Positions 2,565 to 59,802 of a DNA stretch of 64,000 bases are shown here, in pieces. Under the pieces are notes generated by a model that did no database searches, was not told the origin of the DNA, and worked only from the letters and a program-made list of their open reading frames with translations. The number at the start of each line of letters is the position of its first letter. The first letter of the stretch is position 1. The translations under genes and the position numbers were made by a program. Source of the stretch: a bacterium (lineage in GTDB: Bacteria; Patescibacteriota; Minisyncoccia; UBA6257; GWB1-50-10); assembly GCA_021801565.1 (NCBI GenBank), contig JAJYXV010000003.1, positions 68,894 through 132,893 of the forward strand, in the 5' to 3' direction.

Positions 2565-2888
2565 ATGGAAGCTCAAATTATAGAAAAAATAAAGCCTGGG
2601 GCAAAAATACGAGTGTGGGAACGCATAAAAGAAGGCGACAAAGAGCGCCAGAGTGCGTTTGAGGGAATCGTACTTGCAAGGAAACATGGCGTGGAATCGG
2701 GTGCAACATTTACTGTGCGTGCAATATTGCAAGAAGTTGGGGTTGAAAAAGTGTACCCGATTAATTCTCCAAATATTGCAAAAATTGAAATTATTTCTGC
2801 ACCAAAAAAAGTGAGACGATCGAAATTGTATTTCTTGAGGGATCTTTCAAGTAAGAAAGTAAGAGAAAAATTGAGACTTACCACATAA
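2565..2888 (+). CDS. rplS: 50S ribosomal protein L19
   Basis: MEAQIIEKIKPGAKIRVWERIKEG...GIVLARKHG matches L19. The ORF track starts at 2517; the internal Met at 2565 is the likely start. Confidence 0.85.
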   Translation: MEAQIIEKIKPGAKIRVWERIKEGDKERQSAFEGIVLARKHGVESGATFTVRAILQEVGVEKVYPINSPNIAKIEIISAPKKVRRSKLYFLRDLSSKKVREKLRLTT

Positions 2889-2967
2889 TACAAAATCTCC
2901 GTTCGAACACCGGGGATTTTATTTGAAAAAAGTAGTAGGGGTGATTATAATGAAAAACACTCCTTGA

Positions 2968-2980
2968 ATATGCGCGGGTG
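2968..2980 (+). repeat. 13-nt direct repeat ATATGCGCGGGTG copying the 5' end of tRNA-Leu (second copy at 3282-3294)
   Basis: Exact 13-mer repeated 314 nt apart, bracketing the GIY-YIG ORF. A D-arm-like segment gcgaagtggcagat follows the first copy. Confidence 0.5.
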
Positions 2981-3037
2981 CCCGCCCATGGCGGATAAGG
3001 CGAAGTGGCAGATTTAACCGCCTTTGGCGGTCGCACT

Positions 3038-3280
3038 ATGGAAGTAATAGTGTATTCAATAAAAAGTTTGAAAGATGGATATCGGTATGTCGGAATTACG
3101 AAAAATCTAGAAGATAGATTGAAGAGGCATAATGGGGGTCATAATATTAGTACCGCGTCCCACGCCCCATTTCAGTTGATTTATGAAGAAGTGTTTTCAT
3201 CTTATAACGATGCAAGAAAAAAAGAGAAATTTTTAAAAAGTGGAGTTGGACGAAAGTTTTTGGATACTTTAATATCTTAA
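3038..3280 (+). CDS. GIY-YIG nuclease domain protein (~80 aa)
   Basis: VYSIKSLKDGYRYVGITKNLEDRLKRHN is the GIY-(x10)-YVG...R...H signature. The ORF track starts at a GTG at 3005; the ATG at 3038 is more likely. Confidence 0.75.
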   Translation: MEVIVYSIKSLKDGYRYVGITKNLEDRLKRHNGGHNISTASHAPFQLIYEEVFSSYNDARKKEKFLKSGVGRKFLDTLIS

Positions 3281-3285
3281 GATAT

Positions 3286-3372
3286 GCGCGGGTGGCGAAA
3301 CTGGCAGACGCACTACCTTGAGGTGGTAGCGCCCGCAAGGGCTTGGAGGTTCAAATCCTCTCCCGCGCACCA
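3286..3372 (+). tRNA. tRNA-Leu (anticodon GAG), CCA encoded
   Basis: Acceptor GCGCGGG/CCCGCGC, anticodon loop ttGAGgt, long variable arm gcccgcaagggc, T-arm ggagg-ttcaaat-cctct, 3' ACCA. Confidence 0.85.
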
Positions 3373-3376
3373 GAAT

Positions 3377-3415
3377 ACAAAAGGAAAGAATTTTAATTCT
3401 TTCCTTTTGTATTTA
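3377..3415 (+). terminator. Rho-independent terminator after tRNA-Leu
   Basis: Perfect hairpin acaaaaggaaagaatt-ttaa-ttctttccttttgt followed by attta. Confidence 0.6.
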
Positions 3416-3437
3416 TAGATATGTGAAGGATTTGAAT

Positions 3438-3560
3438 GAGAAGGGGGTCGGGGGAACGGAAGTTTCCCCGTGTAAGAAAATACTAAAAACCGAGAGGTTG
3501 TTAGGGAGCGAAGCGACGTTCAAATCCTCCGCCAGAGGCGGACAAGTCTCCCGCGCACCG
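3438..3560 (+). ncRNA. Unclassified structured element A, paralogous to element B at 9283-9438, ending in a tRNA-Leu 3'-end-like sequence
   Basis: Shares AAGGGGGTCGGGG and AAACCG.GGG..T..TA.GGAG.GAAGCGA.G with 9283-9438. Its 3' part gttcaaatcctc...tctcccgcgcacc resembles the T-arm and acceptor 3' strand of the tRNA-Leu just upstream. Confidence 0.3.
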
Positions 3561-3625
3561 GATTATTTGAAGTGATTTGAATAGATGGGAAATTAGAAAG
3601 TTGATGAGTTTGATATAATGAACTC

Positions 3626-4768
3626 ATGAAGAAGAGTCAATTTATTGTTTTTGGTATTGTGCTTATAGTACTCTGTGTTGGAGGATATTTTGTCTTTTCG
3701 TACTTTGAAGAATGGCTCCCGTCTTCACCCACTTTTGATACATATAATCTCCCACCAAATTCCTCTACAACAGGAGATAATATTTCAGATAGTATGGTGA
3801 AAGATCCTTATGCAGGATGGAAAATATACACAAATGAAAAATATGGATACTCGATACATTACCCTGGAAATTGGTATGTCGACACGCGCTTTTCGAATAG
3901 AGATTTCAGCACGCGCGGAAGTGGTGATGTGATGGGCGGGGATACGCTGTTCGCAAATTACGAGAATGGCTATGATTACGACATTACGAATATGCCACGG
4001 GATTTCGATTCAATACAGCTTCTCATTTATAAAACCGATCCAAAGATTGTTTTTCTTGATGATTACGTGAAGACGATCAATTTTGTTGGGTTGTATACAA
4101 AAGAAGATATAATGATCCATGGCGTTCCGGGGCTCAAGCTTACCTTCAGTAAAGACAGAGAGCAGCCATCCGCGGATGCAGTAGTATTTTTAAAGATCAA
4201 TGATAGGGTGTTCAACTTCAGTATACGAGATTCCGCGATAAAAGAACTCATAACCAACTCCTTCCGTCCAAGCGAAAAAAATATGCTTCTTTTAAAACTC
4301 CTTAATCAGCATTTTCCTCCATTTGGAATAGTGGATACACCATTCGCATTTATAAACGGGGGATATAAATATTCATACTGTGGAGGAAAGATGCTTGGTG
4401 AAGAGGACTGCAAGAACAATCCAATATATCAAAATACAACAAGCATATATCTTGACGAAGGTGTGCTCTCGTTTGAAAAAACACAAAATGGGATATATTA
4501 TGTCGCAACGATCGTCACGTTCAATGCCGGAGGAACAGGTCAATATAAATATCTTGTCCTTTTGAACGGAACCCCCGATTCCGATCTTTCGTATGTCGCA
4601 AGTGTAGATCTTGGTGATAGGGTGCAAATACACAGTATCTCATTTTCCGAGGGGAAAATTGTTCTCGATATGAATATACATGGACCAAATGATGGACTAT
4701 GTTGTCCAAGTGTTCGTACAACGAAAATATTCGAATTACAGGGAGGAAATTTAATGGAAGTCCATTAA
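3626..4768 (+). CDS. Hypothetical secreted or membrane-anchored protein (380 aa)
   Basis: N-terminal TM/signal anchor FIVFGIVLIVLCVGGYFVF. No recognisable catalytic motif. A TGnTATAAT element lies 6 nt upstream of the ATG. Confidence 0.6.
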   Translation: MKKSQFIVFGIVLIVLCVGGYFVFSYFEEWLPSSPTFDTYNLPPNSSTTGDNISDSMVKDPYAGWKIYTNEKYGYSIHYPGNWYVDTRFSNRDFSTRGSGDVMGGDTLFANYENGYDYDITNMPRDFDSIQLLIYKTDPKIVFLDDYVKTINFVGLYTKEDIMIHGVPGLKLTFSKDREQPSADAVVFLKINDRVFNFSIRDSAIKELITNSFRPSEKNMLLLKLLNQHFPPFGIVDTPFAFINGGYKYSYCGGKMLGEEDCKNNPIYQNTTSIYLDEGVLSFEKTQNGIYYVATIVTFNAGGTGQYKYLVLLNGTPDSDLSYVASVDLGDRVQIHSISFSEGKIVLDMNIHGPNDGLCCPSVRTTKIFELQGGNLMEVH

Positions 4769-5978: not shown

Positions 5979-7946
5979 ATGAAAAGGTGCCAAGAAGGCA
6001 TTATTTTTATGGCAAAGGAAACGAAAAAAGATGAAAAAAAGATCCAATCTTCCTCATATAGTGCAAAAGATATATATGTTCTTGAGGGACTTGATCCAGT
6101 GAGAAAAAGGCCAGGAATGTATATCGGTTCAACCGGTGTCGACGGACTGCATCATTTAATTTGGGAAATTGTGGACAATTCACTCGACGAGGCAATTGGA
6201 GGATATGCAAAAAAAATTACACTTGAGCTTTTGAAAGATGGGGTTGTATCTGTCACCGATGACGGGCGAGGTATCCCGGTTGATATACATCCGCAAACAA
6301 AAAAATCAGCACTTGAAACGGCATTGTGCACACTTCATGCGGGAGGAAAATTCGGAGGAGATTCATACAAAATTTCTTCAGGACTTCACGGAGTCGGTGT
6401 TTCTGTGGTAAATGCACTTTCCACATGGATGAAAGCAGAAATTCATAAAGACGGAGGAATTTATGTACAAGAATATAAAAAAGGGATTCCGCAATATAGT
6501 GTAAAAAAAATCGGGAAATCGGAGAGAACAGGAACAAAAATAACGTTTCAAGCGGATCCGACGATTTTTCAAAAAATTGAATTTGATACAAAAAAAATTA
6601 CCGACCATCTCCGTCAGCAGGCATATCTGACAAAAGGAATTCATATCGACATTATTGATACGAGAAAAGGACAACCGATATTTTATGGCTTCTATTTTGA
6701 CGGTGGATTAAAATCATTTCTTCATTATTTGGTAAGTGAGACGGAAGAGATTATTCAAGATGAAGCGTTTTATGTGCATAAAGAAATGGAAAAAATCGAT
6801 ATTGAAGCGTCATTTCTTTACACAAGCGATGTAGAAAGCGAAGAGATGAGTTTTGCAAACAATATTTATACCACAGATGGGGGGATGCATCTTACTGGAT
6901 TTCGTTCCGCACTTACTCGATCGTTAAATGATTATGCAAGACAAAACGGCTTTCTCAAAGATGCTGATGAAAATCTTACTGGTGACGATGTTCGTGAGGG
7001 ACTTATTGCACTTGTTTCTGTAAAACTACGCGAACCTCAGTTTGAAGGACAAACAAAAGCGCGACTGGGAAATCCAGAGGCACGTACTGCAGTTGAAACA
7101 GCGGTAAACGAAGCACTTAAAGAATTTCTCGAAAAAAGATCATCTGACGCACGACGTATTATCGAAAAAAATCTTCTTGCCGCGAAAGCGCGAAAAGCGG
7201 CAAAAGCCGCGAAAGATACAGTACTTCGCAAAGGTGCGCTGGAGGGACTCACGCTCCCAGGAAAATTAGCTGATTGTTCATCGCGGAAGGCGGAGGAATC
7301 AGAACTTTTTATTGTTGAAGGAGATTCAGCGGGCGGTTCGTGTAAACAAGGAAGGGACAGAAAAACACAGGCAATTTTGCCTTTGCGAGGAAAAATTTTG
7401 AATGTTGAGAAATCACGCGTGGATAAAATGCTTTTAAACAAAGAAGTGCGTTCGCTTGTTGTTGCGTTAGGGACTGCAATTTCTGATAAATTTGATATTT
7501 CAAAACTTCGGTATCATAAAGTTATTTTAATGGCTGATGCCGATGTTGATGGTGCTCATATTACAACACTTCTTCTCACGCTATTCTATCGTTACTTCAG
7601 ACAGATTATTGAAGGCGGGTATCTTTATATTGCGCAACCACCACTTTTCCGTGTACAAAAAGGAAAGGATATTCGATATGCATATACCGAAGAGGAAAGA
7701 GATAAAACACTGAAATCGTTCGGGGGAGAAGGATCGGTACAGCGATATAAGGGTTTAGGAGAAATGAATCCAGATCAATTATGGGAGACAACAATGAATC
7801 CAGAAAACAGAATGTTGAAACGCGTATCTATTAATGATGTGATACAAGCAGATAAACTTTTTGATATTCTCATGGGAGAAGCAGTTGAACCACGTAAGAA
7901 ATTTATACAGGCCCATGCGAGTACTGTGCAAAATCTTGACATTTAA
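5979..7946 (+). CDS. gyrB: DNA gyrase subunit B (type IIA topoisomerase B subunit)
   Basis: GHKL ATPase motif [21 protein letters not shown] region, C-terminal [21 protein letters not shown]. The start may be the Met at 6009. Confidence 0.85.
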
Positions 7947-13302: not shown

Positions 13303-13338
13303 AACTGTCTAGTATGGAGCGATCGCTCCATACTAGAC
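13303..13338. repeat. Perfect 36-nt palindrome (18-bp arms) centred on GCGATCGC, downstream of thrS
   Basis: ctgtctagtatggagcga|tcgctccatactagacag equals its own reverse complement, followed by agttcttttta. Probable bidirectional terminator. Confidence 0.5.
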
Positions 13339-13348
13339 AGAGTTCTTT

Positions 13349-28954: not shown

Positions 28955-28992
28955 CCCTCATTCTAATGTTCTCAAGAACATTAGAATGAGGG
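28955..28992. promoter_or_regulatory. 38-nt palindrome (18-bp arms, core AATGTTCTCAAGAACATT) overlapping the start region of the ArsR-like gene
   Basis: ccctcattctaatgttct-ca-agaacattagaatgaggg. Related copies at 29274-29299, 51964-52003 and 30513-30534. Confidence 0.45.
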
Positions 28993-29306
28993 GGGAGGAA
29001 AGTGATATAATAAAGAATATGAAAGGGGATGGGGGAAGGTCAAAGTTTTATACACTAGAAAAGATAATAAAAGGAGCAAGCAATCATCGAAGGGTTGAAA
29101 TTTTATACCTCTTAAAAGAAAAGCCAAATCTTTCGGTTTTCGATATATCGGAAAAATTAAAGTGTAATTTCAAGACTATTTCCGAACATACGCGTCGGTT
29201 GGTGCAATCTGGGTTGATTTCGAAATATTCTGATGGAAGCTCGGTTCGTCACGAAATTACTTTATTGGGGGAAAATGTTCTCAAGTTCTTGAGAACATTG
29301 GAATAA
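28986..29306 (+). CDS. ArsR/SmtB-family winged-helix transcriptional regulator
   Basis: HRRVEILYLLKEKPNLSVFDISEKL...TISEHTRRLVQSGLI is a helix-turn-helix of the ArsR type. The likely start is the Met at 29019, after a GGGGGAGGAAAG RBS. Confidence 0.6.
   Translation: MRGEESDIIKNMKGDGGRSKFYTLEKIIKGASNHRRVEILYLLKEKPNLSVFDISEKLKCNFKTISEHTRRLVQSGLISKYSDGSSVRHEITLLGENVLKFLRTLE
29274..29299. promoter_or_regulatory. Palindrome AATGTTCTCAAG-TT-CTTGAGAACATT at the 3' end of the ArsR-like gene, upstream of the methyltransferase gene
   Basis: 12-bp arms. Shares the half-site with 28955-28992 and 51964-52003. Confidence 0.4.
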
Positions 29307-29341
29307 ATATTTGTATAAATGTATAGGATATATACACATAT

Positions 29342-30463
29342 ATGGGTATATTGGCTATAAAAAAGTTACTTTTATCTGCTGGAGTGGAGGTGAACGGAAG
29401 AAATCCGTGGGATATACAGATTAAAGATGAGCGAACATATGCACGCGTGCTTCGTGGTGGATCGTTGGGGCTTGGAGAGGCATATATGGATGGCTGGTGG
29501 AATGCTGAAAAACTTGACGAGTTTTTTGATCGCATACTTCGTTTTCAGATTGAGAGAAGCGTTACTCTTACACTCCCTCTTATTTGGCAGGCACTTGTTG
29601 CGCGCGTAGTAAATCGTCAGGCGCGACAAAAAGCGTTTCATATTGGTGAACGACACTACGATACGGGAAATGATATTTTTGAACTAATGCTTGGAAAAAC
29701 GATGGCATATTCATGCGGATATTGGAACTTGCCAGCCGGTGGAGTAAAAAATCTCGATGAAGCACAAGAGGCAAAGTTTGATCTTGTCTGCAGAAAAATG
29801 GAATTAAAATCAGGAATGCATATTCTTGATATCGGATGCGGGTGGGGAACATTTATGAAATATGCCGTCGAGCATTATGGAGTGAGTGCTGTTGGATTCA
29901 CTGTTTCAAAAGAACAGGCAGAGTGGGGAAAAAATGTATGTCGAGGATTACCGATTGAAATTCGTCTTGAAGATTATCGAAATATTTCAGAATCTTTTGA
30001 TCGTATTATTTCCATTGGAATGTTTGAACATGTCGGATACAAAAACTATCGGTCATTCATGCGCGTAGTTGCACGATGTCTTAAAGATAATGGATTGTTT
30101 TTACTCCACACAATTGGAAATAGCCGTTCTACAAGAACGGGGGATGCGTGGATGGAACGATATATTTTTCCTGGGGGACAACTTCCTTCAATTCGACAAA
30201 TTGGGGCTGCGATAGAAGATGTATTTGTTATGGAAGATTGGCACAATTTTGGGACTGACTATGATAAGACACTTATGGCGTGGTATGTAAATTTTGAAAA
30301 AAACTGGCCGAGTTTAAAAGAAAAATATGGCGATCGTTTTTACCGAATGTGGACATATTATCTTCTTTCATGTGCGGGAGCGTTTCGCTCGAGAAAAATG
30401 CAACTTTGGCAAATTATCCTTTCAAAAAAAGGTGTTTTAGGTGGGTGGAGGGCGGTGCGATAG
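29342..30463 (+). CDS. Cyclopropane-fatty-acyl-phospholipid synthase family SAM-dependent methyltransferase
   Basis: ILDIGCGWGTFMKYAVEHYGVSAVGFTVSKEQ SAM-binding motif and overall CFA-synthase-like architecture. Confidence 0.8.
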   Translation: MGILAIKKLLLSAGVEVNGRNPWDIQIKDERTYARVLRGGSLGLGEAYMDGWWNAEKLDEFFDRILRFQIERSVTLTLPLIWQALVARVVNRQARQKAFHIGERHYDTGNDIFELMLGKTMAYSCGYWNLPAGGVKNLDEAQEAKFDLVCRKMELKSGMHILDIGCGWGTFMKYAVEHYGVSAVGFTVSKEQAEWGKNVCRGLPIEIRLEDYRNISESFDRIISIGMFEHVGYKNYRSFMRVVARCLKDNGLFLLHTIGNSRSTRTGDAWMERYIFPGGQLPSIRQIGAAIEDVFVMEDWHNFGTDYDKTLMAWYVNFEKNWPSLKEKYGDRFYRMWTYYLLSCAGAFRSRKMQLWQIILSKKGVLGGWRAVR

Positions 30464-30512
30464 CGGCCAATAAAAAAAACTTCAATCAATTTGAGGTTTT
30501 TAATTCAACACC

Positions 30513-30534
30513 CTAATATTCTGCAGAATATTAG
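30513..30534. repeat. Perfect 22-nt palindrome CTAATATTCTGCAGAATATTAG between convergent genes
   Basis: Self-complementary. Shares the CTAAT...TTCT..AGAA...ATTAG architecture with the palindromes around the ArsR-like gene. Confidence 0.4.
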
Positions 30535-30544
30535 AATATTATCT

Positions 30545-31705
30545 CTACTTTATTTTTTCTTTGAGCACTCTAATTTTTTCCGCAGAGGTGTAAATATTTG
30601 AAATAGAAACATCTCCGGTTTGTATCGCATTCCAGATTGCATCAATAGCGCGTTTCGGTGAAGATTCGTCATAGACATTTCCATTATTTGAAATAATGAG
30701 CATATTAGTTCCTGCTTTTACAGCTTTTACCACAGCATCTTCAAATCCATAATTATTTCGTATTGCTCCCATATCCATATCATCAGATATAACAACTCCA
30801 TCAAATCCAAGTTCTTCACGGAGTATATTTTGTATGAATTTTTCTGAAAGTGATGCGGGATAATCTTGGTCAATATTTTTATTGAACACATGTGCCACCA
30901 TAACAGTGTCCACAAGTTTCTTTTCAATGAGAGTTCTGAATGGTTCAAGTTCTTTGTTTTTATATGTCTTTGTGATGTCAACTATTCCAAGATGGCTATC
31001 TGTATTTGAACTTCCGTGCCCGGGGAAGTGTTTTATTGAGGTAAGTATATTGAAGTCGTGGAGACCCGAAATGAATTCTGAGGCATGTATAACAACAAGA
31101 TTTGGATTATCACTAAATGAGCGCTCAAGCTTTCCAATAATGGGATTTTGTGGGTTTGTATTCAAGTCAACTACTGGTGCAAAATTAAGATTAATTCCGA
31201 GTTCCGAAAGTTCTTTTCCTAGTATTTCGGCAGTACGGTGAGTTTTCTTTTTTTGTTCCTTTCCGAGCATCTCATGTGAGGGAATGTCAGAAAATCCGTA
31301 TGCGGGTTTAAGTCTATTCACCATTCCACCTTCCGCGTCAATTGAGATAAGGAGGGGGGTTTCAGAATATGAAACAATATCAGAAACTAGTTTTTTTGTT
31401 TGTGTGGGATTTATTATATTTCGTTCTTTTATGCCGCTTGGAATGTCATAGTCAAAAAGAATAATCCCCCCAATATTGAGATCTTTTATTGTTCTAATAA
31501 TATATGAGTTTTCATTCACAGAAGTTCCACGGAATCCAATAATGAACATTTGTCCGATAAGTTTTCGTGTTTTAATTTCACTAAGATCAGCTTTTTCTGT
31601 GTTAACCTTGCCGTTTTTAAGAATAACTGAAGACGGAATGAAATAGAGCCATATTACCGTGACTATAATTACCACAATAAGAAAAATAGAAATATTTTTT
31701 TTCAT
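30545..31705 (-). CDS. Glycoside hydrolase family 3 beta-N-acetylhexosaminidase (NagZ-like), membrane-anchored
   Basis: KHFPGHGSSNTDSHLG motif with an N-terminal TM. The ORF track extends to 31870, but the start is probably MKKNISIFL at 31705. Confidence 0.8.
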   Translation of the reverse strand: MKKNISIFLIVVIIVTVIWLYFIPSSVILKNGKVNTEKADLSEIKTRKLIGQMFIIGFRGTSVNENSYIIRTIKDLNIGGIILFDYDIPSGIKERNIINPTQTKKLVSDIVSYSETPLLISIDAEGGMVNRLKPAYGFSDIPSHEMLGKEQKKKTHRTAEILGKELSELGINLNFAPVVDLNTNPQNPIIGKLERSFSDNPNLVVIHASEFISGLHDFNILTSIKHFPGHGSSNTDSHLGIVDITKTYKNKELEPFRTLIEKKLVDTVMVAHVFNKNIDQDYPASLSEKFIQNILREELGFDGVVISDDMDMGAIRNNYGFEDAVVKAVKAGTNMLIISNNGNVYDESSPKRAIDAIWNAIQTGDVSISNIYTSAEKIRVLKEKIK

Positions 31706-31847
31706 TTTGATATATAGATTATATCGTATATAGATTATATTTTGTATTTTCTTCCTTATTTCAATATTCTTAAAGGTATTAGAATAAGTAATTCTTGGTT
31801 TTTTTATATTATTTACTCCGTTCGCTTTTTCTTTTATTATTAATAGG

Positions 31848-46380: not shown

Positions 46381-46420
46381 AAATCCCCTCCGATGTATAT
46401 CGGAGGGGATTTTGTTTTTG
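46381..46420 (+). terminator. Rho-independent terminator
   Basis: aaatcccctccgat-gtatat-atcggaggggatttt followed by gttttt. Confidence 0.5.
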
Positions 46421-49795: not shown

Positions 49796-49836
49796 AAATA
49801 AACCACTCCGCACTGAAAGTGCGGAGTGGTTTATTT
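49796..49836. terminator. Bidirectional terminator, perfect 18-bp stem with A-run and T-run
   Basis: aaataaaccactccgcac-tgaaa-gtgcggagtggtttattt. Confidence 0.6.
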
Positions 49837-49837
49837 G

Positions 49838-49899
49838 CTGCGGGACTAGGAGTCGGACCTAGATACCGGGATTCAAAGTCCCGTGTCCTACCATTAGAC
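49838..49899 (-). pseudogene. Partial tRNA-Gln copy (62 nt, D-arm to 3' end, no 5' acceptor strand), abutted by the palindrome CCTGCCTGCGCAGGCAGG
   Basis: Identical to nt 49951-50012 of the intact tRNA-Gln, but the 5' side reads gcaggcag instead of TGCGGGATC and cannot pair with the 3' acceptor strand. Confidence 0.5.
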
Positions 49900-49950
49900 C
49901 TGCCTGCGCAGGCAGGCGATCCTCAAATGAATATAAACTCTCGATCACAG

Positions 49951-50021
49951 CTGCGGGACTAGGAGTCGGACCTAGATACCGGGATTCAAAGTCCCGTGTC
50001 CTACCATTAGACGATCCCGCA
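49951..50021 (-). tRNA. tRNA-Gln (anticodon TTG), CCA not encoded, atypical T-loop TCCGACT
   Basis: Minus-strand reading: TGCGGGA-TC-GTCT-AATGGTA-GGAC-A-CGGGA-CTTTGAA-TCCCG-GTAT-CTAGG-TCCGACT-CCTAG-TCCCGCA-G. All stems pair. Position 55 is C rather than U. Confidence 0.7.
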
Positions 50022-51508: not shown

Positions 51509-51964
51509 ATGGCAGATTTTATACTCAAATGTTCATTATTTAAGGAAGATGGAATAATTCCTGCACGCTACACGTGCGATGGAGAAAATATAAATCCGCT
51601 TTTGGAAATTAGAGGAGTGCCCAAAGAAGCAAAAAGTTTGGTGCTTATTATGGACGATCCTGACGCGACGAATGGAAAGGTATGGGATCACTGGATTCTA
51701 TGGAATATTAATCCAAAGACACAATACATTTCGGAAGATTCTCTTCCACTTGATGTGGTGGTTGGAATGAACAGCTGGGGAAGTGCCCGGTATGGAGGTC
51801 CATGTCCACCACATGGCACTGTACCACATCGGTATATGTTTAAATTATATGCACTTGATGTTGTTCTTGATTTTCCTTCTGATACAAAAAAGCAGGAACT
51901 AGAACGAGCGATTGAAAGTCATGTGATTGCACGGACAGATCTCATGGGAAAATATGGAAGGTAA
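51509..51964 (+). CDS. PEBP-family protein (YbhB/YbcL-like)
   Basis: DPDAT...HW...GGPCPPHGTVPHRYMFKLYALD PEBP signature. Confidence 0.8.
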   Translation: MADFILKCSLFKEDGIIPARYTCDGENINPLLEIRGVPKEAKSLVLIMDDPDATNGKVWDHWILWNINPKTQYISEDSLPLDVVVGMNSWGSARYGGPCPPHGTVPHRYMFKLYALDVVLDFPSDTKKQELERAIESHVIARTDLMGKYGR

Positions 51965-52003
51965 ATAACATTCCAATGTTCTTGAGAACATTGGAATGTT
52001 ATT
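51964..52003. promoter_or_regulatory. 40-nt palindrome (core AATGTTCTTGAGAACATT, the reverse complement of the 28964 core) at the start of the 51976 gene
   Basis: aataacattccaatgttc-ttga-gaacattggaatgttatt, with 18-bp arms. Confidence 0.4.
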
Positions 52004-52410
52004 ATATAAATATGAAACAGCCACAAAATGATTCAAAATATGAGTGGACTGGGCACGCATGGGAAAAGATGCAATATTATGGAATCTCCGAAGGGAGAAT
52101 AAAACGCATTATCCGTTTTCCTTCGCGCATTGAAGAAGGAATTGCTGAAAATACAGTTGCGGTGATGCAGCCCGCAGGCACAAAAAACTATCAGGAGATA
52201 TGGGTGATGTACACGCTCGCGCAAGCACGAGCAAATCTCAAATCTCAAAAATCAAATCTCAAAGGTAAGATAGAAAATAATCTAAAACAATTTTTAGGGA
52301 ATTCTGGGAAAAAATTTCGAATTATCACCGCGTGGCGATATCCTGGAAAAAGTTCAGAAAGAGATCCTATTCCTGAAGACATTATGATAGAAATCAAAAG
52401 TTTGCTTTGA
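51976..52410 (+). CDS. Hypothetical protein (likely start at the Met at 52012)
   Basis: ORF with no known motif. The first 12 codons lie inside the palindrome. Confidence 0.45.
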   Translation: MFLRTLECYYINMKQPQNDSKYEWTGHAWEKMQYYGISEGRIKRIIRFPSRIEEGIAENTVAVMQPAGTKNYQEIWVMYTLAQARANLKSQKSNLKGKIENNLKQFLGNSGKKFRIITAWRYPGKSSERDPIPEDIMIEIKSLL

Positions 52411-53830: not shown

Positions 53831-54847
53831 ATGAAATTATCAATTGGCATTGTAGGTCTTCCTAATGTGGGGAAATCAACGCTTTTTAAGGCTCTGACCG
53901 CACAGGAAGTGCATATCGCAAATTATCCGTTTGCGACGATTGATCCAAATGTAGGAGTAGTGCCAGTTCCTGATGAGCGGGTTGATGCACTTGCAAAATT
54001 AAGTAATTCAAAAAAGAAAGTTCCTGCAGTTGTCGAGTTTTACGATATTGCGGGACTTGTGAAAGGAGCAAATCAGGGTGAGGGATTGGGAAATCAATTT
54101 CTTTCGCACATTCGTGAATGCAAAGCGGTGGTGCAAGTGGTTCGCTGTTTTTCTTCGGGAGAAATTATTCATGTCGAAGGTAACACAAATCCAGAAAGAG
54201 ACATTGATATCATCAACACCGAGTTATTATTAAAAGATCTTGATACGATTGAGAAACGATATCACAAAGCAGAGTCGGAAGCGCGAAGCGGAAAAAAAGA
54301 AATGGTGGTGGTGCGGGATGCACTTAAAAAAATAAAAGATGAAATTGAAAAAGGGGTTCCTCTTTTCACGCTCCCAAATCATTCTGAAATTCTTGAAAGT
54401 ATTAAAATGATTGGAGATTTAGGATTATTAACTGCAAAGGCACAAATTTTTCTTTTAAACGGAAATGAAAGCGATGTAAGCGACGCACTCAAAGAAAAAA
54501 TAAAAAAGATGAACGCGGAGTATGTAATTGCCGATTTGAGTTCGGGAAATGCCATTCCGGAACTTATTAAGAGTGCATATAAAATTTTGGATCTTATGAG
54601 TTTTCTTACTACCGGAGAAGATGAAACACGTGCATGGACAATTGAGAGAGGATCAAAAGCACCACAAGCGGCAGGTACCATTCACACTGATTTTGAGCAG
54701 AAATTTATACGGGCTGAAGTTATTTCGTACGAAAAACTTGTGCAGGCGGGCGGATGGGTGCAGGCAAAACAAAAGGGCTGGTTACGCCTTGAGGGAAAAG
54801 ATTATATTGTACAGGACGGAGATGTAATGGTAATAAGACATGGATAA
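53831..54847 (+). CDS. ychF: Ribosome-binding ATPase YchF (Obg-like)
   Basis: GIVGLPNVGKSTLFKALT G1 motif, NYPFATIDPNVG, and a C-terminal TGS domain. Confidence 0.9.
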   Translation: MKLSIGIVGLPNVGKSTLFKALTAQEVHIANYPFATIDPNVGVVPVPDERVDALAKLSNSKKKVPAVVEFYDIAGLVKGANQGEGLGNQFLSHIRECKAVVQVVRCFSSGEIIHVEGNTNPERDIDIINTELLLKDLDTIEKRYHKAESEARSGKKEMVVVRDALKKIKDEIEKGVPLFTLPNHSEILESIKMIGDLGLLTAKAQIFLLNGNESDVSDALKEKIKKMNAEYVIADLSSGNAIPELIKSAYKILDLMSFLTTGEDETRAWTIERGSKAPQAAGTIHTDFEQKFIRAEVISYEKLVQAGGWVQAKQKGWLRLEGKDYIVQDGDVMVIRHG

Positions 54848-59664: not shown

Positions 59665-59802
59665 GAGAGGTTTTTAAAAGCCTCTTTTTTGTTTTATAAT
59701 AAGCAAATGAAAATTCTTTTTGGCAACTGCCCCGCCTTCGTTAAAACTCCGGCGGGATTGCGATTTATTTCCGATTCTTATCGGAAATAAATCGGGAAGA
59801 AA

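What the first reader, a model, noticed from the sequence alone, without database searches (positions are those of the whole stretch)
28955..29312. ArsR-type regulator gene bracketed by related TTCT-N-AGAA palindromes, with a reverse-orientation copy 23 kb away
A 38-nt palindrome at 28955-28992 (core AATGTTCTCAAGAACATT, flanked by ATTCTAAT/ATTAGAAT) overlaps the RBS and start region of an ArsR/SmtB-like winged-helix gene. A second palindrome at 29274-29299 (AATGTTCTCAAG-TT-CTTGAGAACATT) sits at its 3' end, just upstream of a CFA-synthase-like methyltransferase gene. A 40-nt palindrome at 51964-52003 carries the exact reverse-complement core, AATGTTCTTGAGAACATT, at the start of another hypothetical gene. 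A related perfect palindrome CTAATATTCTGCAGAATATTAG at 30513-30534 lies between the convergent methyltransferase and nagZ-like genes, where it could equally be a bidirectional terminator. A weaker ATTCT-N10-AGAAT site at 31763-31796 lies in the divergent nagZ-like/aspS promoter region. The pattern fits an autoregulated ArsR-family repressor with a small dispersed regulon. Alternatively these are a family of miniature palindromic repeats.
Basis: partly seen in the sequence, partly recalled or inferred. Interest (0 to 1): 0.6.

Follow-up and report, generated by a model that had tools for sequence, protein, structure and literature searches.

The report
Conserved palindromic element bracketing its ArsR-type gene
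The palindromes are real and belong to a widespread, apparently undescribed family of about 30-bp palindromic DNA elements that always bracket a small ArsR-type DNA-binding gene, and that also sit as conserved solo copies between genes and in frame inside housekeeping genes, so this is more than a simple repressor with a small regulon.

Summary
Perfect palindromes lie at 28955-28992, 29274-29299, 30513-30534 and 51964-52003. Weaker copies lie at 31758-31785 and inside ychF at 54381-54408; chance predicts about 0.4 such sites.

The gene 29019-29306 encodes an ArsR/SmtB-type winged-helix protein. In 77 of 78 distant homologues, one palindrome sits just upstream of an extended -10 promoter. A second palindrome forms the last nine codons plus the stop codon (ILKFLRTLE*). 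This supports autoregulation.

The same 28-bp core, ATTCY-AATGTTCT-NN-AGAACATT-RGAAT, occurs in at least 119 stretches of Patescibacteria and Phycisphaerae genomes. About a quarter of these copies lie in frame deep inside conserved genes: YchF, TsaD, MnmA, MnmE, TrmD, Tgt, Dus, TruA, AlaRS and LeuRS. Those copies are 90-100% identical while the host genes are only 46-61% identical.

Solo copies lack the promoter signature. The arms covary: the TTC/GAA boxes are invariant and the linkers change symmetrically.

Best reading: a conserved palindromic element together with its cognate ArsR-like binding protein. The operator idea holds for the regulator's own gene. The "small regulon" idea does not hold in general. 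Binding has not been tested.

The parts
28955..28992 (.). Upstream copy of the palindromic element (18+2+18; 28-bp core 28960-28987). Putative autoregulatory operator covering the -35 region and upstream DNA of the regulator's promoter.
   Evidence: 0 mismatches. Conserved with compensatory arm changes in L001 and L002 and in 77 of 78 homologues.
29003..29011 (+). Extended -10 promoter element TGATATAAT, 7 nt before ATG 29019 (leaderless transcript inferred).
   Evidence: Sequence. The same TGnTATAAT-N6-8-ATG arrangement is seen in L001, L002 and many homologues. 15 of 18 gene-proximal flanks carry it against 0 of 18 distal flanks.
29019..29306 (+). ArsR/SmtB-type winged-helix gene (95 aa). 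Recognition helix NFKTISEHTRRL; C-terminal alpha5 helix ENVLKFLRTLE.
   Evidence: Pfam HTH_5 6e-10. Homologues are 88-95 aa. PDB profile hits HlyU, CadC, CzrA and AspA.
29274..29304 (.). 3' copy of the element embedded in the last codons of the regulator gene (perfect 12+2+12 at 29274-29299; 28-bp site 29277-29304). It is translated as VLKFLRTLE, and the stop codon follows directly.
   Evidence: 0 box mismatches. In every homologue that could be scored (77 loci), the best-matching 28-mer window ends exactly 2 nt before the end of the stop codon; all but one have 6 or fewer mismatches to the consensus.
30510..30537 (.). Variant copy (AATATTCT GC AGAATATT subfamily; perfect 11+0+11 at 30513-30534) in the gap between the convergent CFA-synthase and GH3 genes.
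   Evidence: 4 mismatches. The same variant core flanks the regulator gene in L179.
31758..31785 (.). Degenerate copy (6 mismatches) at the right edge of the window-specific cfa/GH3 segment, about 20 nt upstream of the conserved aspS leader.
   Evidence: Comparison with L001 and L002.
51964..52003 (.). Solo copy (19+2+19), starting at the last base of the PEBP stop codon and abutting a TGn -10-like element (TGTTATTAT, 51997-52005) 6 nt before ATG 52012.
   Evidence: The site is present at the same place in L204 as a symmetric variant. It is absent in L209 and L207, whose PEBP is 2-6 aa longer.
54381..54408 (+). Decayed copy inside ychF (peptide HSEILESIKM), at the position where relatives carry the perfect element (YSNVL[KE]NI[RG]I).

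Best explanation
The four palindromes are copies of one conserved DNA element. It is a 13-2-13 palindrome with two invariant TTC boxes per arm ([A/G]TTC[T/C]-NNN-[G/A]TTCT-YR-AGAA[C/T]-NNN-[A/G]GAA[T/C]), and it often extends to 36-50 bp.

I infer that the element is the cognate binding site of the small ArsR/SmtB-type protein encoded at 29019-29306.

The gene is built into a fixed module. One copy lies immediately upstream of its TGn-extended -10 promoter; a bound dimer or tetramer would occupy the -35 region and repress or tune transcription (autoregulation, inferred). A second copy forms the last nine codons and leads into the stop codon, so the alpha5 helix of the protein is the frame-1 translation of the element.

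Further solo copies (51964-52003, 30510, 31758 and the ychF relic) are dispersed members of the same family. They are not ordinary promoter operators. They occur in every kind of intergenic gap and in frame inside conserved genes, where they are kept almost unchanged over long evolutionary times. They probably serve as additional binding sites for the protein, as roadblocks, terminator-like hairpins or structural sites; which of these is unknown.

The arms stay symmetric because the palindrome forms hairpins or a cruciform in vivo. Either selection for pairing or hairpin-templated copying of one arm onto the other would give this result. New copies seem to arise by templated insertion that adds an inverted copy of the neighbouring host sequence, not by a transposase.

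Shown here: the anatomy, the conservation, the covariation and the link to the gene. Inferred: protein binding, the direction of regulation, the hairpin-templated mechanism and the role of solo copies.
For: Module conserved:
- 77 of 78 protein-retrieved homologues have an upstream palindrome. All 77 that could be scored have a best-matching site window ending 2 nt before the end of the stop codon, and all but one have 6 or fewer mismatches.
- The palindrome follows the gene when the neighbours change.
- The promoter signature occurs only on the gene-proximal side.
- The family fits ArsR/SmtB, whose known operators are 12-2-12 inverted repeats (my knowledge; Pfam and PDB results).

Protein and site change together:
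- In L202 the recognition helix is GYEN instead of NFKT, and all four sites in that locus carry TTTTGCAAAA instead of TTCTnnAGAA.
- Across the family, deviant recognition helices go with deviant C-terminal codons (68, 10, 4 and 15 in the two-by-two table).
- The upstream and 3' sites of one genome are more alike than shuffled pairs (12.18 against 11.45 +/- 0.095 of 13 positions; 0 of 500 shuffles).

Constraint on solo copies:
- Orthologous intragenic sites are 90-100% identical (third codon positions 80-100%). The host genes are 46-61% identical (third positions 34-37%).
- The same AT-rich core sits in genomes ranging from below 30% to 68% GC.

Symmetry:
- 16 of 21 arm pairs show changes on both sides. 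The covariation score is 0.361 against 0.172 in shuffles (0 of 500).
- Watson-Crick symmetry decays gradually from 0.93 at arm position 14 to the baseline of 0.25 at position 22.
- The centre dinucleotide is a pyrimidine-purine step in 70 of 75 sites.

Insertion anatomy:
- The group II intron reverse transcriptase of L030 carries a clean +39 nt relative to L079. This is a 30-nt core plus 9 nt that mirror the host flank.
- The same X-core-X' pattern appears in TrmD (L074) and UvrC (L068).
Against: - No binding data exist.
- Symmetric covariation of linker bases among sites of one genome is not needed for a duplex-binding dimer. It points to a hairpin or cruciform state, which ArsR proteins are not known to need.
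- The spacing of the TTC boxes (8 bp within an arm; 7, 15 and 23 bp across the centre) does not match the roughly 10-bp spacing of classical ArsR half-sites.
- No homologue of the regulator was found in the 14 high-GC loci, about 8 kb each and mostly labelled Phycisphaerae, that carry the element.
- The distance between the two flanking sites shows no helical phasing.
- The protein-site covariation rests on one clear lineage plus a table confounded by phylogeny.
- The striking excess of tRNA-modification and aminoacyl-tRNA synthetase host genes is not explained.
Confidence: 0.55

Rival explanations
1. One reading: an autoregulated ArsR-family repressor whose palindromic operators define a small dispersed regulon of promoters (its own gene, cfa, the gene at 52012, aspS/nagZ).
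For: The upstream site overlaps the regulator's own promoter in nearly all homologues. The 29274-29299 copy lies 43 nt before cfa. The 51964-52003 copy abuts a TGn -10-like element 6 nt before ATG 52012.
Against: - cfa and the GH3 gene are absent from close relatives that keep the 3' site, so that copy is not a cfa operator.
- The PEBP-side copy stays with the PEBP 3' end in L204, where a different gene follows.
- Solo copies elsewhere lack the promoter signature.
- 29 of 130 sites lie deep inside open reading frames, and 14 lie in convergent gaps.
Confidence: 0.12
2. The elements act as RNA hairpins (terminators, mRNA 3' stabilisers or RNase III targets), in the manner of REP sequences. The link to the ArsR-type gene is secondary.
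For: - The stems are strong and perfect: -30.3 and -23.8 kcal/mol, z about -6.7.
- The arms covary.
- Many copies follow stop codons.
- Some copies in other genomes are flanked by A and T runs, like bidirectional terminators (L011, L059, L113, L118).
Against: - The invariant boxes and the centre pyrimidine-purine preference are not needed for a hairpin.
- The copy upstream of the regulator lies before its -10 element, outside its transcript.
- Copies occur in divergent gaps.
- The window's copies have no T run, and the terminator scan does not call them.
- There is no strand asymmetry of G-U-compatible mismatches within the core (27 against 21).
- No Rfam family matches.
Confidence: 0.15
3. 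A selfish miniature mobile element (MITE/REP/RPE-like) moved by an unidentified enzyme. The ArsR-type gene is its passenger or a domesticated silencer.
For: - In-frame insertions occur in many unrelated genes.
- The site is present or absent among close relatives.
- The element occurs in two phyla and across a wide GC range.
- The regulator module lies between ComEC and a separate MBL gene in L059.
- In the window, gene cassettes (cfa, GH3) are bounded by copies.
Against: - No terminal inverted repeats distinct from the palindrome were seen.
- No direct target-site duplication was seen at three junctions.
- No transposase-like neighbour was found.
- Copy number is low: 2 perfect copies in 64 kb, and one to a few per long contig.
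- Orthologous copies are conserved far beyond neutral expectation.
Confidence: 0.2
4. The copies are chromosome-organising or centromere-like sites (in the manner of parS/ParB, NBS/Noc, matS/MatP or pNOB8 AspA) bound by the wHTH as a nucleoid protein.
For: - Conserved palindromes inside genes are typical of such systems (my knowledge).
- The protein profile hits the ArsR-like centromere binder AspA (2.7e-5).
- A site lies next to and inside the protein's own gene, as with parS in spo0J (my knowledge).
- Six copies cluster within 26 kb of the window.
Against: No ParA/ParB-like or other conserved partner lies next to the gene. The position relative to the origin is unknown. Insertion events and arm covariation are not features of those systems.
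Confidence: 0.12

Closest known systems
ArsR/SmtB-family autoregulated repressors with 12-2-12 inverted-repeat operators (SmtB, CzrA, CadC; closest solved relative HlyU)
   Same: The winged-helix fold, including the alpha5 dimerisation helix. A long palindrome with a 2-bp centre overlaps the regulator's own promoter.
   Different: - No canonical alpha3N CXC or alpha5 DxH...H/E sensing motif is evident by inspection.
- A second site is embedded in the last codons of the gene.
- Many further copies lie inside unrelated ORFs.
- The arms covary.
- The site is conserved across phylum-level lineages.
REP elements and their RAYT genes
   Same: Short (20-40 bp) palindromes dispersed in the chromosome. 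Some lie inside genes. The gene of the associated protein is flanked by two copies (PMC3733652).
   Different: - The flanked gene encodes an 88-95 aa DNA-binding domain, not a HUH/Y1 transposase.
- There is no GTAG/CGTC tag.
- There are few copies per genome rather than hundreds.
- The core is nearly identical across distant lineages rather than species-specific.
Rickettsia palindromic elements (RPE)
   Same: Palindromic elements inserted in frame into housekeeping ORFs and translated as part of the protein (PMC10969869).
   Different: RPEs are about 150 bp, restricted to Rickettsia, and have no known cognate binding protein. Here the core is 28-30 bp and orthologous copies are under strong constraint.
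parS/ParB and the ArsR-like centromere binder AspA of pNOB8
   Same: Conserved palindromic binding sites, often intragenic, with one at the binding protein's own gene. AspA is a remote sequence relative.
   Different: No partition ATPase or adaptor gene lies nearby. The sites show insertion anatomy and symmetric drift.
Integron attC sites
   Same: Imperfect palindromes with conserved boxes and structure-conserved variable parts. They bound gene cassettes (my knowledge).
   Different: The boxes do not match RYYYAAC/GTTRRRY. No integrase is nearby. Cassette orientation is mixed. Copies lie inside ORFs.

Membership tests
ArsR/SmtB family | HTH_5-type winged helix-turn-helix domain | tested here: met
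   Pfam PF01022 scores 39.3 bits against a cut-off of 22. PDB profile search gives HlyU at 4.6e-9, plus CadC, CzrA and SmtB.
ArsR/SmtB family | Palindromic operator at its own promoter (autoregulation) | tested here: met
   Met at the sequence level only. 77 of 78 homologues have the palindrome upstream. A -10-like hexamer follows the proximal end in 15 of 18 cases and the distal end in 0 of 18. Binding was not tested.
ArsR/SmtB family | Metal or thiol sensing site (alpha3N CXC or alpha5 DxHx10HxxE/H) | tested here: not met
   By inspection of alignment A1 there is no CXC and no alpha5 His/Asp cluster. Only a family-specific His (H89 of the 106-aa ORF) and the C-terminal Glu are conserved. The effector, if any, is unknown.
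REP/RAYT | High copy number and an unpaired GTAG or CGTC tag (PMC3733652) | tested here: not met
   Only 2 perfect and 4 weaker copies occur in 64 kb. Long contigs carry one to a few copies. No tag is visible in the flanks.
REP/RAYT | Associated tyrosine (HUH) transposase gene flanked by the repeats | tested here: not met
   The flanked gene is a wHTH of 88-95 aa. Its neighbours are diverse housekeeping genes.
MITE | Terminal inverted repeats with direct target-site duplication | tested here: not met
   At three junctions (L030, L074 and L068 compared with orthologues) there is no direct duplication. Instead, one flank is an inverted copy of the other.
RPE-like in-frame palindromic insertions | Translated in-frame insertion in housekeeping ORFs | tested here: met
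   Only stop-free frames were seen: SNVL[KE]NI in most cases and FQCSQEHW in a few. Hosts were confirmed by Pfam.
Intrinsic terminator | G+C-rich stem followed by a T run | tested here: not met
   The window's copies were not called by the terminator scan and have no T run. A minority of copies in other genomes do have A/T runs.
parS/ParB- or AspA-type centromere | Adjacent partition genes and positional clustering near the origin | tested here: inconclusive
   There is no conserved neighbour. The origin position could not be tested with 8-kb loci.
DNA uptake sequences | Very high density (about one per kb) of a short motif | tested here: not met
   Six copies occur in 64 kb, and the motif is 28 bp long.
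Rfam RNA families | Match to a curated covariance model | tested here: not met
   Only sub-threshold miRNA-hairpin hits were found (37 bits against a gathering score of 96).

The most novel reading that the evidence does not exclude
This is a previously unrecognised kind of chromosomal element. It is a transposase-less palindrome that keeps itself symmetric and copies itself by hairpin-templated synthesis. Its binding protein is encoded inside the element: the element supplies both the operator and the protein's last helix and leads into its stop codon. Its conserved solo copies mark tRNA-modification and translation genes across Patescibacteria and Phycisphaerae, forming a site network with a regulatory or structural role rather than a classical regulon or junk repeat.
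Probability: 0.3. Interest if true: 0.85.

Novelty: new variant of a known kind. Interest (0 to 1): 0.72.

Why it matters
Almost nothing is known about gene regulation or chromosome biology in the candidate phyla radiation.

This finding offers a conserved protein-site pair that can be tested with a 95-aa protein and a 38-bp oligonucleotide. At least 290 protein clusters at 50% identity, and at least 500 metagenomic loci, carry the same module.

It is a clear case of dual coding. The alpha5 helix of a DNA-binding protein is the translation of a copy of its presumed binding site, and the two change together.

It also shows a 28-30-bp DNA sequence held nearly invariant inside unrelated essential genes, in genomes from below 30% to 68% GC. 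This needs a functional or mechanistic explanation.

Finally, the anatomy of the copies (symmetric drift, and inverted duplication of the flank) points to palindrome birth and maintenance without a transposase.

Tried and rejected
- **Remnant of a duplicated or inserted gene end.** I considered that the 3' palindrome came from a duplicated gene end or an inserted element supplying a foreign C-terminus. Rejected: ILKFLRTLE is conserved in all homologues and aligns with alpha5 of HlyU.
- **DNA looping between the two flanking sites.** Centre-to-centre distances run from 266 to 458 bp without helical phasing (resultant 0.21-0.24).
- **A conserved partner gene (transposase, recombinase, ParA/B, toxin).** None was found; the neighbours are diverse.
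- **RNA signature through strand-biased G-U mismatches.** None was seen within the core.
- **Known RNA family.** None matched.
- **Phage origin.** The viral collection gave one partial match.
- **Literature.** Searches for the sequence itself and for CPR/ArsR/palindrome terms returned nothing relevant.
- **The regulator in Phycisphaerae.** It was not found in the 14 high-GC loci held.
- **Population variants of the window's own genome.** Six further contigs carry identical sites and were uninformative.
- **Gene-context classification.** It used a crude longest-ORF caller, so the counts are approximate. The intragenic set was re-derived more strictly and checked with Pfam.
Full report
**1. The observation**

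The window is AT-rich (36-39% GC) and densely coding, with small genes. The regulator's close relatives and most loci that carry the motif are titled Patescibacteria or Paceibacterota MAGs.

- 28955-28992: 18+2+18.
- 29274-29299: 12+2+12.
- 30513-30534: 11+0+11.
- 51964-52003: 19+2+19. Its centre, TG, is the reverse complement of the CA centre at 28973-28974.

They share far more sequence than chance allows.

Scored against a 28-mer consensus, ATTCY AATGTTCT NN AGAACATT RGAAT, the window holds a graded series of six copies. Two are perfect (28960, 51970). The others lie at the 3' end of the regulator gene (3 mismatches), in the cfa/GH3 gap (4), upstream of aspS (6) and inside ychF (54381, 7). 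About 0.36 sites with 7 or fewer mismatches are expected by chance.

The window also holds unrelated long palindromes and ordinary A-tract/T-tract terminators. Long hairpins are therefore common in this genome, but only these six form a family.

**2. The gene**

The ORF is an ArsR/SmtB-type winged helix (HTH_5, 6e-10). A profile of the family hits HlyU (4.6e-9), CadC, CzrA, SmtB and, more weakly, the archaeal centromere binder AspA. The alignment to HlyU runs through the C-terminal helix, so ENVLKFLRTLE is the alpha5 helix of the fold.

Homologues are 88-95 aa, so the start is ATG 29019. TGATATAAT at 29003-29011 lies 7 nt before it. Relatives show the same arrangement, a TGn-extended -10 followed by 6-8 nt and then ATG. 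The mRNA is therefore probably leaderless, and the palindrome covers the -35 region and the DNA upstream of it. It does not overlap an RBS.

**3. The palindrome goes with the gene**

In L002 and L003 the upstream gene is the same as in the window. In L001 it is different and is followed by a classical terminator. In all three the palindrome sits in front of the regulator gene, with compensatory changes in both arms.

A protein-based scan of metagenomes, unbiased with respect to DNA, found at least 504 relatives. Of the 78 loci analysed, 77 have a palindrome of this architecture whose centre lies 35-65 nt upstream of the first aligned residue in most loci. In all 77 that could be scored, the best-matching 28-mer window ends exactly 2 nt before the end of the stop codon, and all but one have 6 or fewer mismatches.

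In frame 1 the element reads ILMFLRTLE, or ILKFLRTLE with a two-base compromise. The flank AGAATAR then supplies TAA or TAG. The conserved C-terminus of the protein and the 3' copy of the element are therefore the same DNA.

A -10-like hexamer lies 11-20 nt beyond the gene-proximal end of the upstream copy in 15 of 18 cases (13 with TGn). It never lies beyond the distal end.

The family comprises about 290 clusters at 50% identity with E of 1e-10 or better. There is no conserved neighbour gene.

**4. The element is widespread and not confined to promoters**

Nearly all match on both strands, so they are full palindromes. By record title the hosts are:
- Harrison-, Kaiser-, Wildermuth-, Lloyd-, Zambryski-, Lipton- and Campbellbacteria;
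- other Patescibacteria MAGs;
- several Phycisphaerae and Tepidisphaeraceae MAGs.

Locus GC content ranges from below 30% to 68%.

About 24 of 130 unique sites flank a homologue of the regulator. Twenty-nine lie at least 40 codons from both ends of an open reading frame. Pfam identifies many of the hosts (TruA and a second MnmE in GC-rich genomes):
- YchF (5), MnmA (3), TsaD (2), MnmE (2) and M24 peptidase (2);
- one each of Tgt, Dus, TrmD, TruA, AlaRS, LeuRS, UvrC, MurD, a phosphoglucomutase, a lamin-tail-domain protein and a group II intron reverse transcriptase.

Only stop-free frames occur. Frame 3 gives [YH]SNVL[KE]NI[RG][IM], and frame 2 gives FQCSQEHWN. Frame 1 always runs into a stop, which is how the regulator gene ends.

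By a crude ORF call, intergenic copies fall in tandem, convergent and divergent gaps at 40, 14 and 6. The background of gap types is 599, 164 and 165. Solo copies have only background levels of -10-like hexamers.

**5. The copies are constrained**

Orthologous copies in YchF (five lineages), MnmA (three), TsaD and PepP are 90-100% identical, with third codon positions 80-100% identical. The rest of each gene is 46-61% identical, with third positions saturated at 34-37%. The DNA right next to the core is as diverged as the rest of the gene, so recent transfer with flanking sequence is unlikely.

The window's ychF keeps a decayed version at the same codons.

At other places the element turns over quickly. 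The copy after the PEBP stop codon is present in the window. It is also present, as a symmetric variant with the same outer arms, in L204. It is absent in L209 (88% identical PEBP) and L207, where PEBP is 2-6 residues longer.

**6. The arms are kept symmetric**

In 75 protein-retrieved upstream sites, the TTC (and TTCT) boxes and their GAA (AGAA) mirror images are invariant. Sixteen of 21 arm pairs show changes on both sides. The covariation score is 0.361 against 0.172 in shuffles (0 of 500), and against 0.09-0.14 when the partner columns are slid.

Linker triplets differ between sites of one genome yet remain symmetric, so this is not co-evolution with the protein.

Beyond the core, Watson-Crick symmetry fades gradually (0.80, 0.68, 0.61, 0.54, 0.51, 0.44, 0.36) and reaches the baseline at arm position 22. 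Single copies reach 50-78 nt of perfect symmetry.

The centre is TG, CA or TA in 69 of 75 sites. There is no strand bias of G-U-compatible mismatches within the core, and no Rfam family matches.

Upstream sites are much more symmetric than the coding-constrained 3' sites (38 of 71 perfect against 4 of 71). The two sites of one genome resemble each other more than shuffled pairs do. In some lineages the upstream site is a palindromised copy of the left half of the 3' site (ATTCTCAAATTCT). In others it copies the right half.

At three insertions that could be compared with element-free orthologues, one flank is host sequence and the other is its inverted copy. There is no direct target duplication.

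Together these points indicate that the palindrome forms hairpins in vivo, and that one arm or flank is copied from the other.

**7. Does the protein bind it?**

This is inferred, not shown. The evidence in favour:
- the universal module and the promoter overlap;
- the family's known preference for 12-2-12 repeats (my knowledge);
- the invariant recognition helix N[FLY]KTxSEH alongside invariant boxes;
- L202, where a changed helix (GYENASDH) goes with a changed inner box (TTTTGCAAAA) in all four sites of the locus;
- a family-wide association between deviant helices and deviant C-terminal codons, confounded by phylogeny.

The evidence against or left open:
- the box spacing is unusual;
- the need for arm symmetry is unexplained;
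- no homologue was seen in the high-GC (mostly Phycisphaerae-labelled) loci held.

**8. Comparison with known systems**

The protein is a member of the ArsR/SmtB fold family, but it shows no canonical sensing motif.

The element works partly like an ArsR operator. It is distributed partly like REP or RPE elements (PMC3733652, PMC10969869). It resembles REP/RAYT in that the associated gene is flanked by two copies. It fails the defining tests for REP/RAYT, MITE, terminator, uptake-sequence and Rfam membership.

Neither the sequence nor the system was found in the searchable literature. That library does not cover subscription journals.

**9. Verdict**

The autoregulation idea is well supported by comparative evidence. 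The regulon idea is not supported in general. The repeat-family alternative is right in kind but understates the finding.

The most likely description is a conserved palindromic element with a cognate ArsR-type binding protein whose gene is built into the element. Further copies are conserved inside translation-related genes for reasons not yet known.

Noticed in passing
window 29307-31800: The CFA-synthase and GH3 (nagZ-like) genes are absent between the regulator gene and aspS in close relatives (L001-L003). The window-specific segment is bounded by the 3' copy of the element and the degenerate copy at 31758. It carries a variant copy (30510) of a subfamily seen in other genomes (L179). This looks like cassettes bounded by the element.
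   Followed up: partly
L095, L080, L026, L114, L006, L032, L071, L074, L069, L040, L019, L065 (and window 31758 before aspS): Host or neighbour genes of solo copies are strikingly often tRNA-related: TsaD, MnmA, MnmE (two different positions), TrmD, Tgt, Dus, TruA, AlaRS, LeuRS and a tRNA_bind protein, plus YchF. This holds in both Patescibacteria and Phycisphaerae. No explanation was found, and no formal background test could be run.
   Followed up: partly
L010, L019, L024, L027, L032, L035, L065, L071, L076, L083: The same AT-rich core sits in 59-68% GC Phycisphaerae and Tepidisphaeraceae contigs, in frame in GC-rich native genes. No homologue of the ArsR-type gene lies in these roughly 8-kb loci.
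   Followed up: partly
L207 3900-4300 (also L204, L206, L208): Relatives carry a second, different 88-aa ArsR-type gene (HTH_20/HTH_5) between the DUF4258-like gene and its downstream neighbours (MPG in L204). It is bracketed by its own repeats (CTCTAATTC and GAATAGGCGAAT on both sides). The gene is missing from the window at about 52410.
   Followed up: no
L059 3662-6513: The regulator module (site, gene, site) lies between a ComEC gene with DUF4131 and Competence domains and a separate metallo-beta-lactamase gene. As far as I know, these are usually domains of one ComEC protein. The same arrangement recurs in 3-4 loci.
   Followed up: partly
window 51962-52003 compared with L209 and L207: Where the element follows PEBP, the protein is 151 aa and the stop codon overlaps the start of the palindrome's outer arm. 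Relatives without the element have PEBP of 153-157 aa. The element appears to have replaced the last codons and the intergenic spacer.
   Followed up: yes
L110 4478-4555; L122 about 6035-6112: A roughly 78-nt perfect palindrome built around the core lies at the end of a high-GC contig. A second contig shares its right flank. This may be an assembly artefact or an extreme extension of the arms.
   Followed up: no
window 3374-3413, 13305-13340, 46381-46412, 49796-49836, 59761-59794: Other long perfect palindromes with 0-4 nt centres are unrelated in sequence to this family. Two lie next to tRNA genes (3374 after a tRNA 3' end; 49796 beside tRNAs at 49838-50021). Classical A-tract/stem/T-tract terminators lie at 2080, 5452, 9235 and 38108.
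   Followed up: no
L002 6290-6830: A 547-nt stretch without a called gene lies between the regulator gene and aspS. It contains a partial duplication of the aspS 5' leader and has no Rfam match.
   Followed up: partly
L004 TsaD site (within 2718-3887): An intragenic copy carries a symmetric double change (AACGTTCT..AGAACGTT) that alters the encoded residue (I to V). Arm symmetry is therefore kept even at the cost of an amino-acid change.
   Followed up: partly
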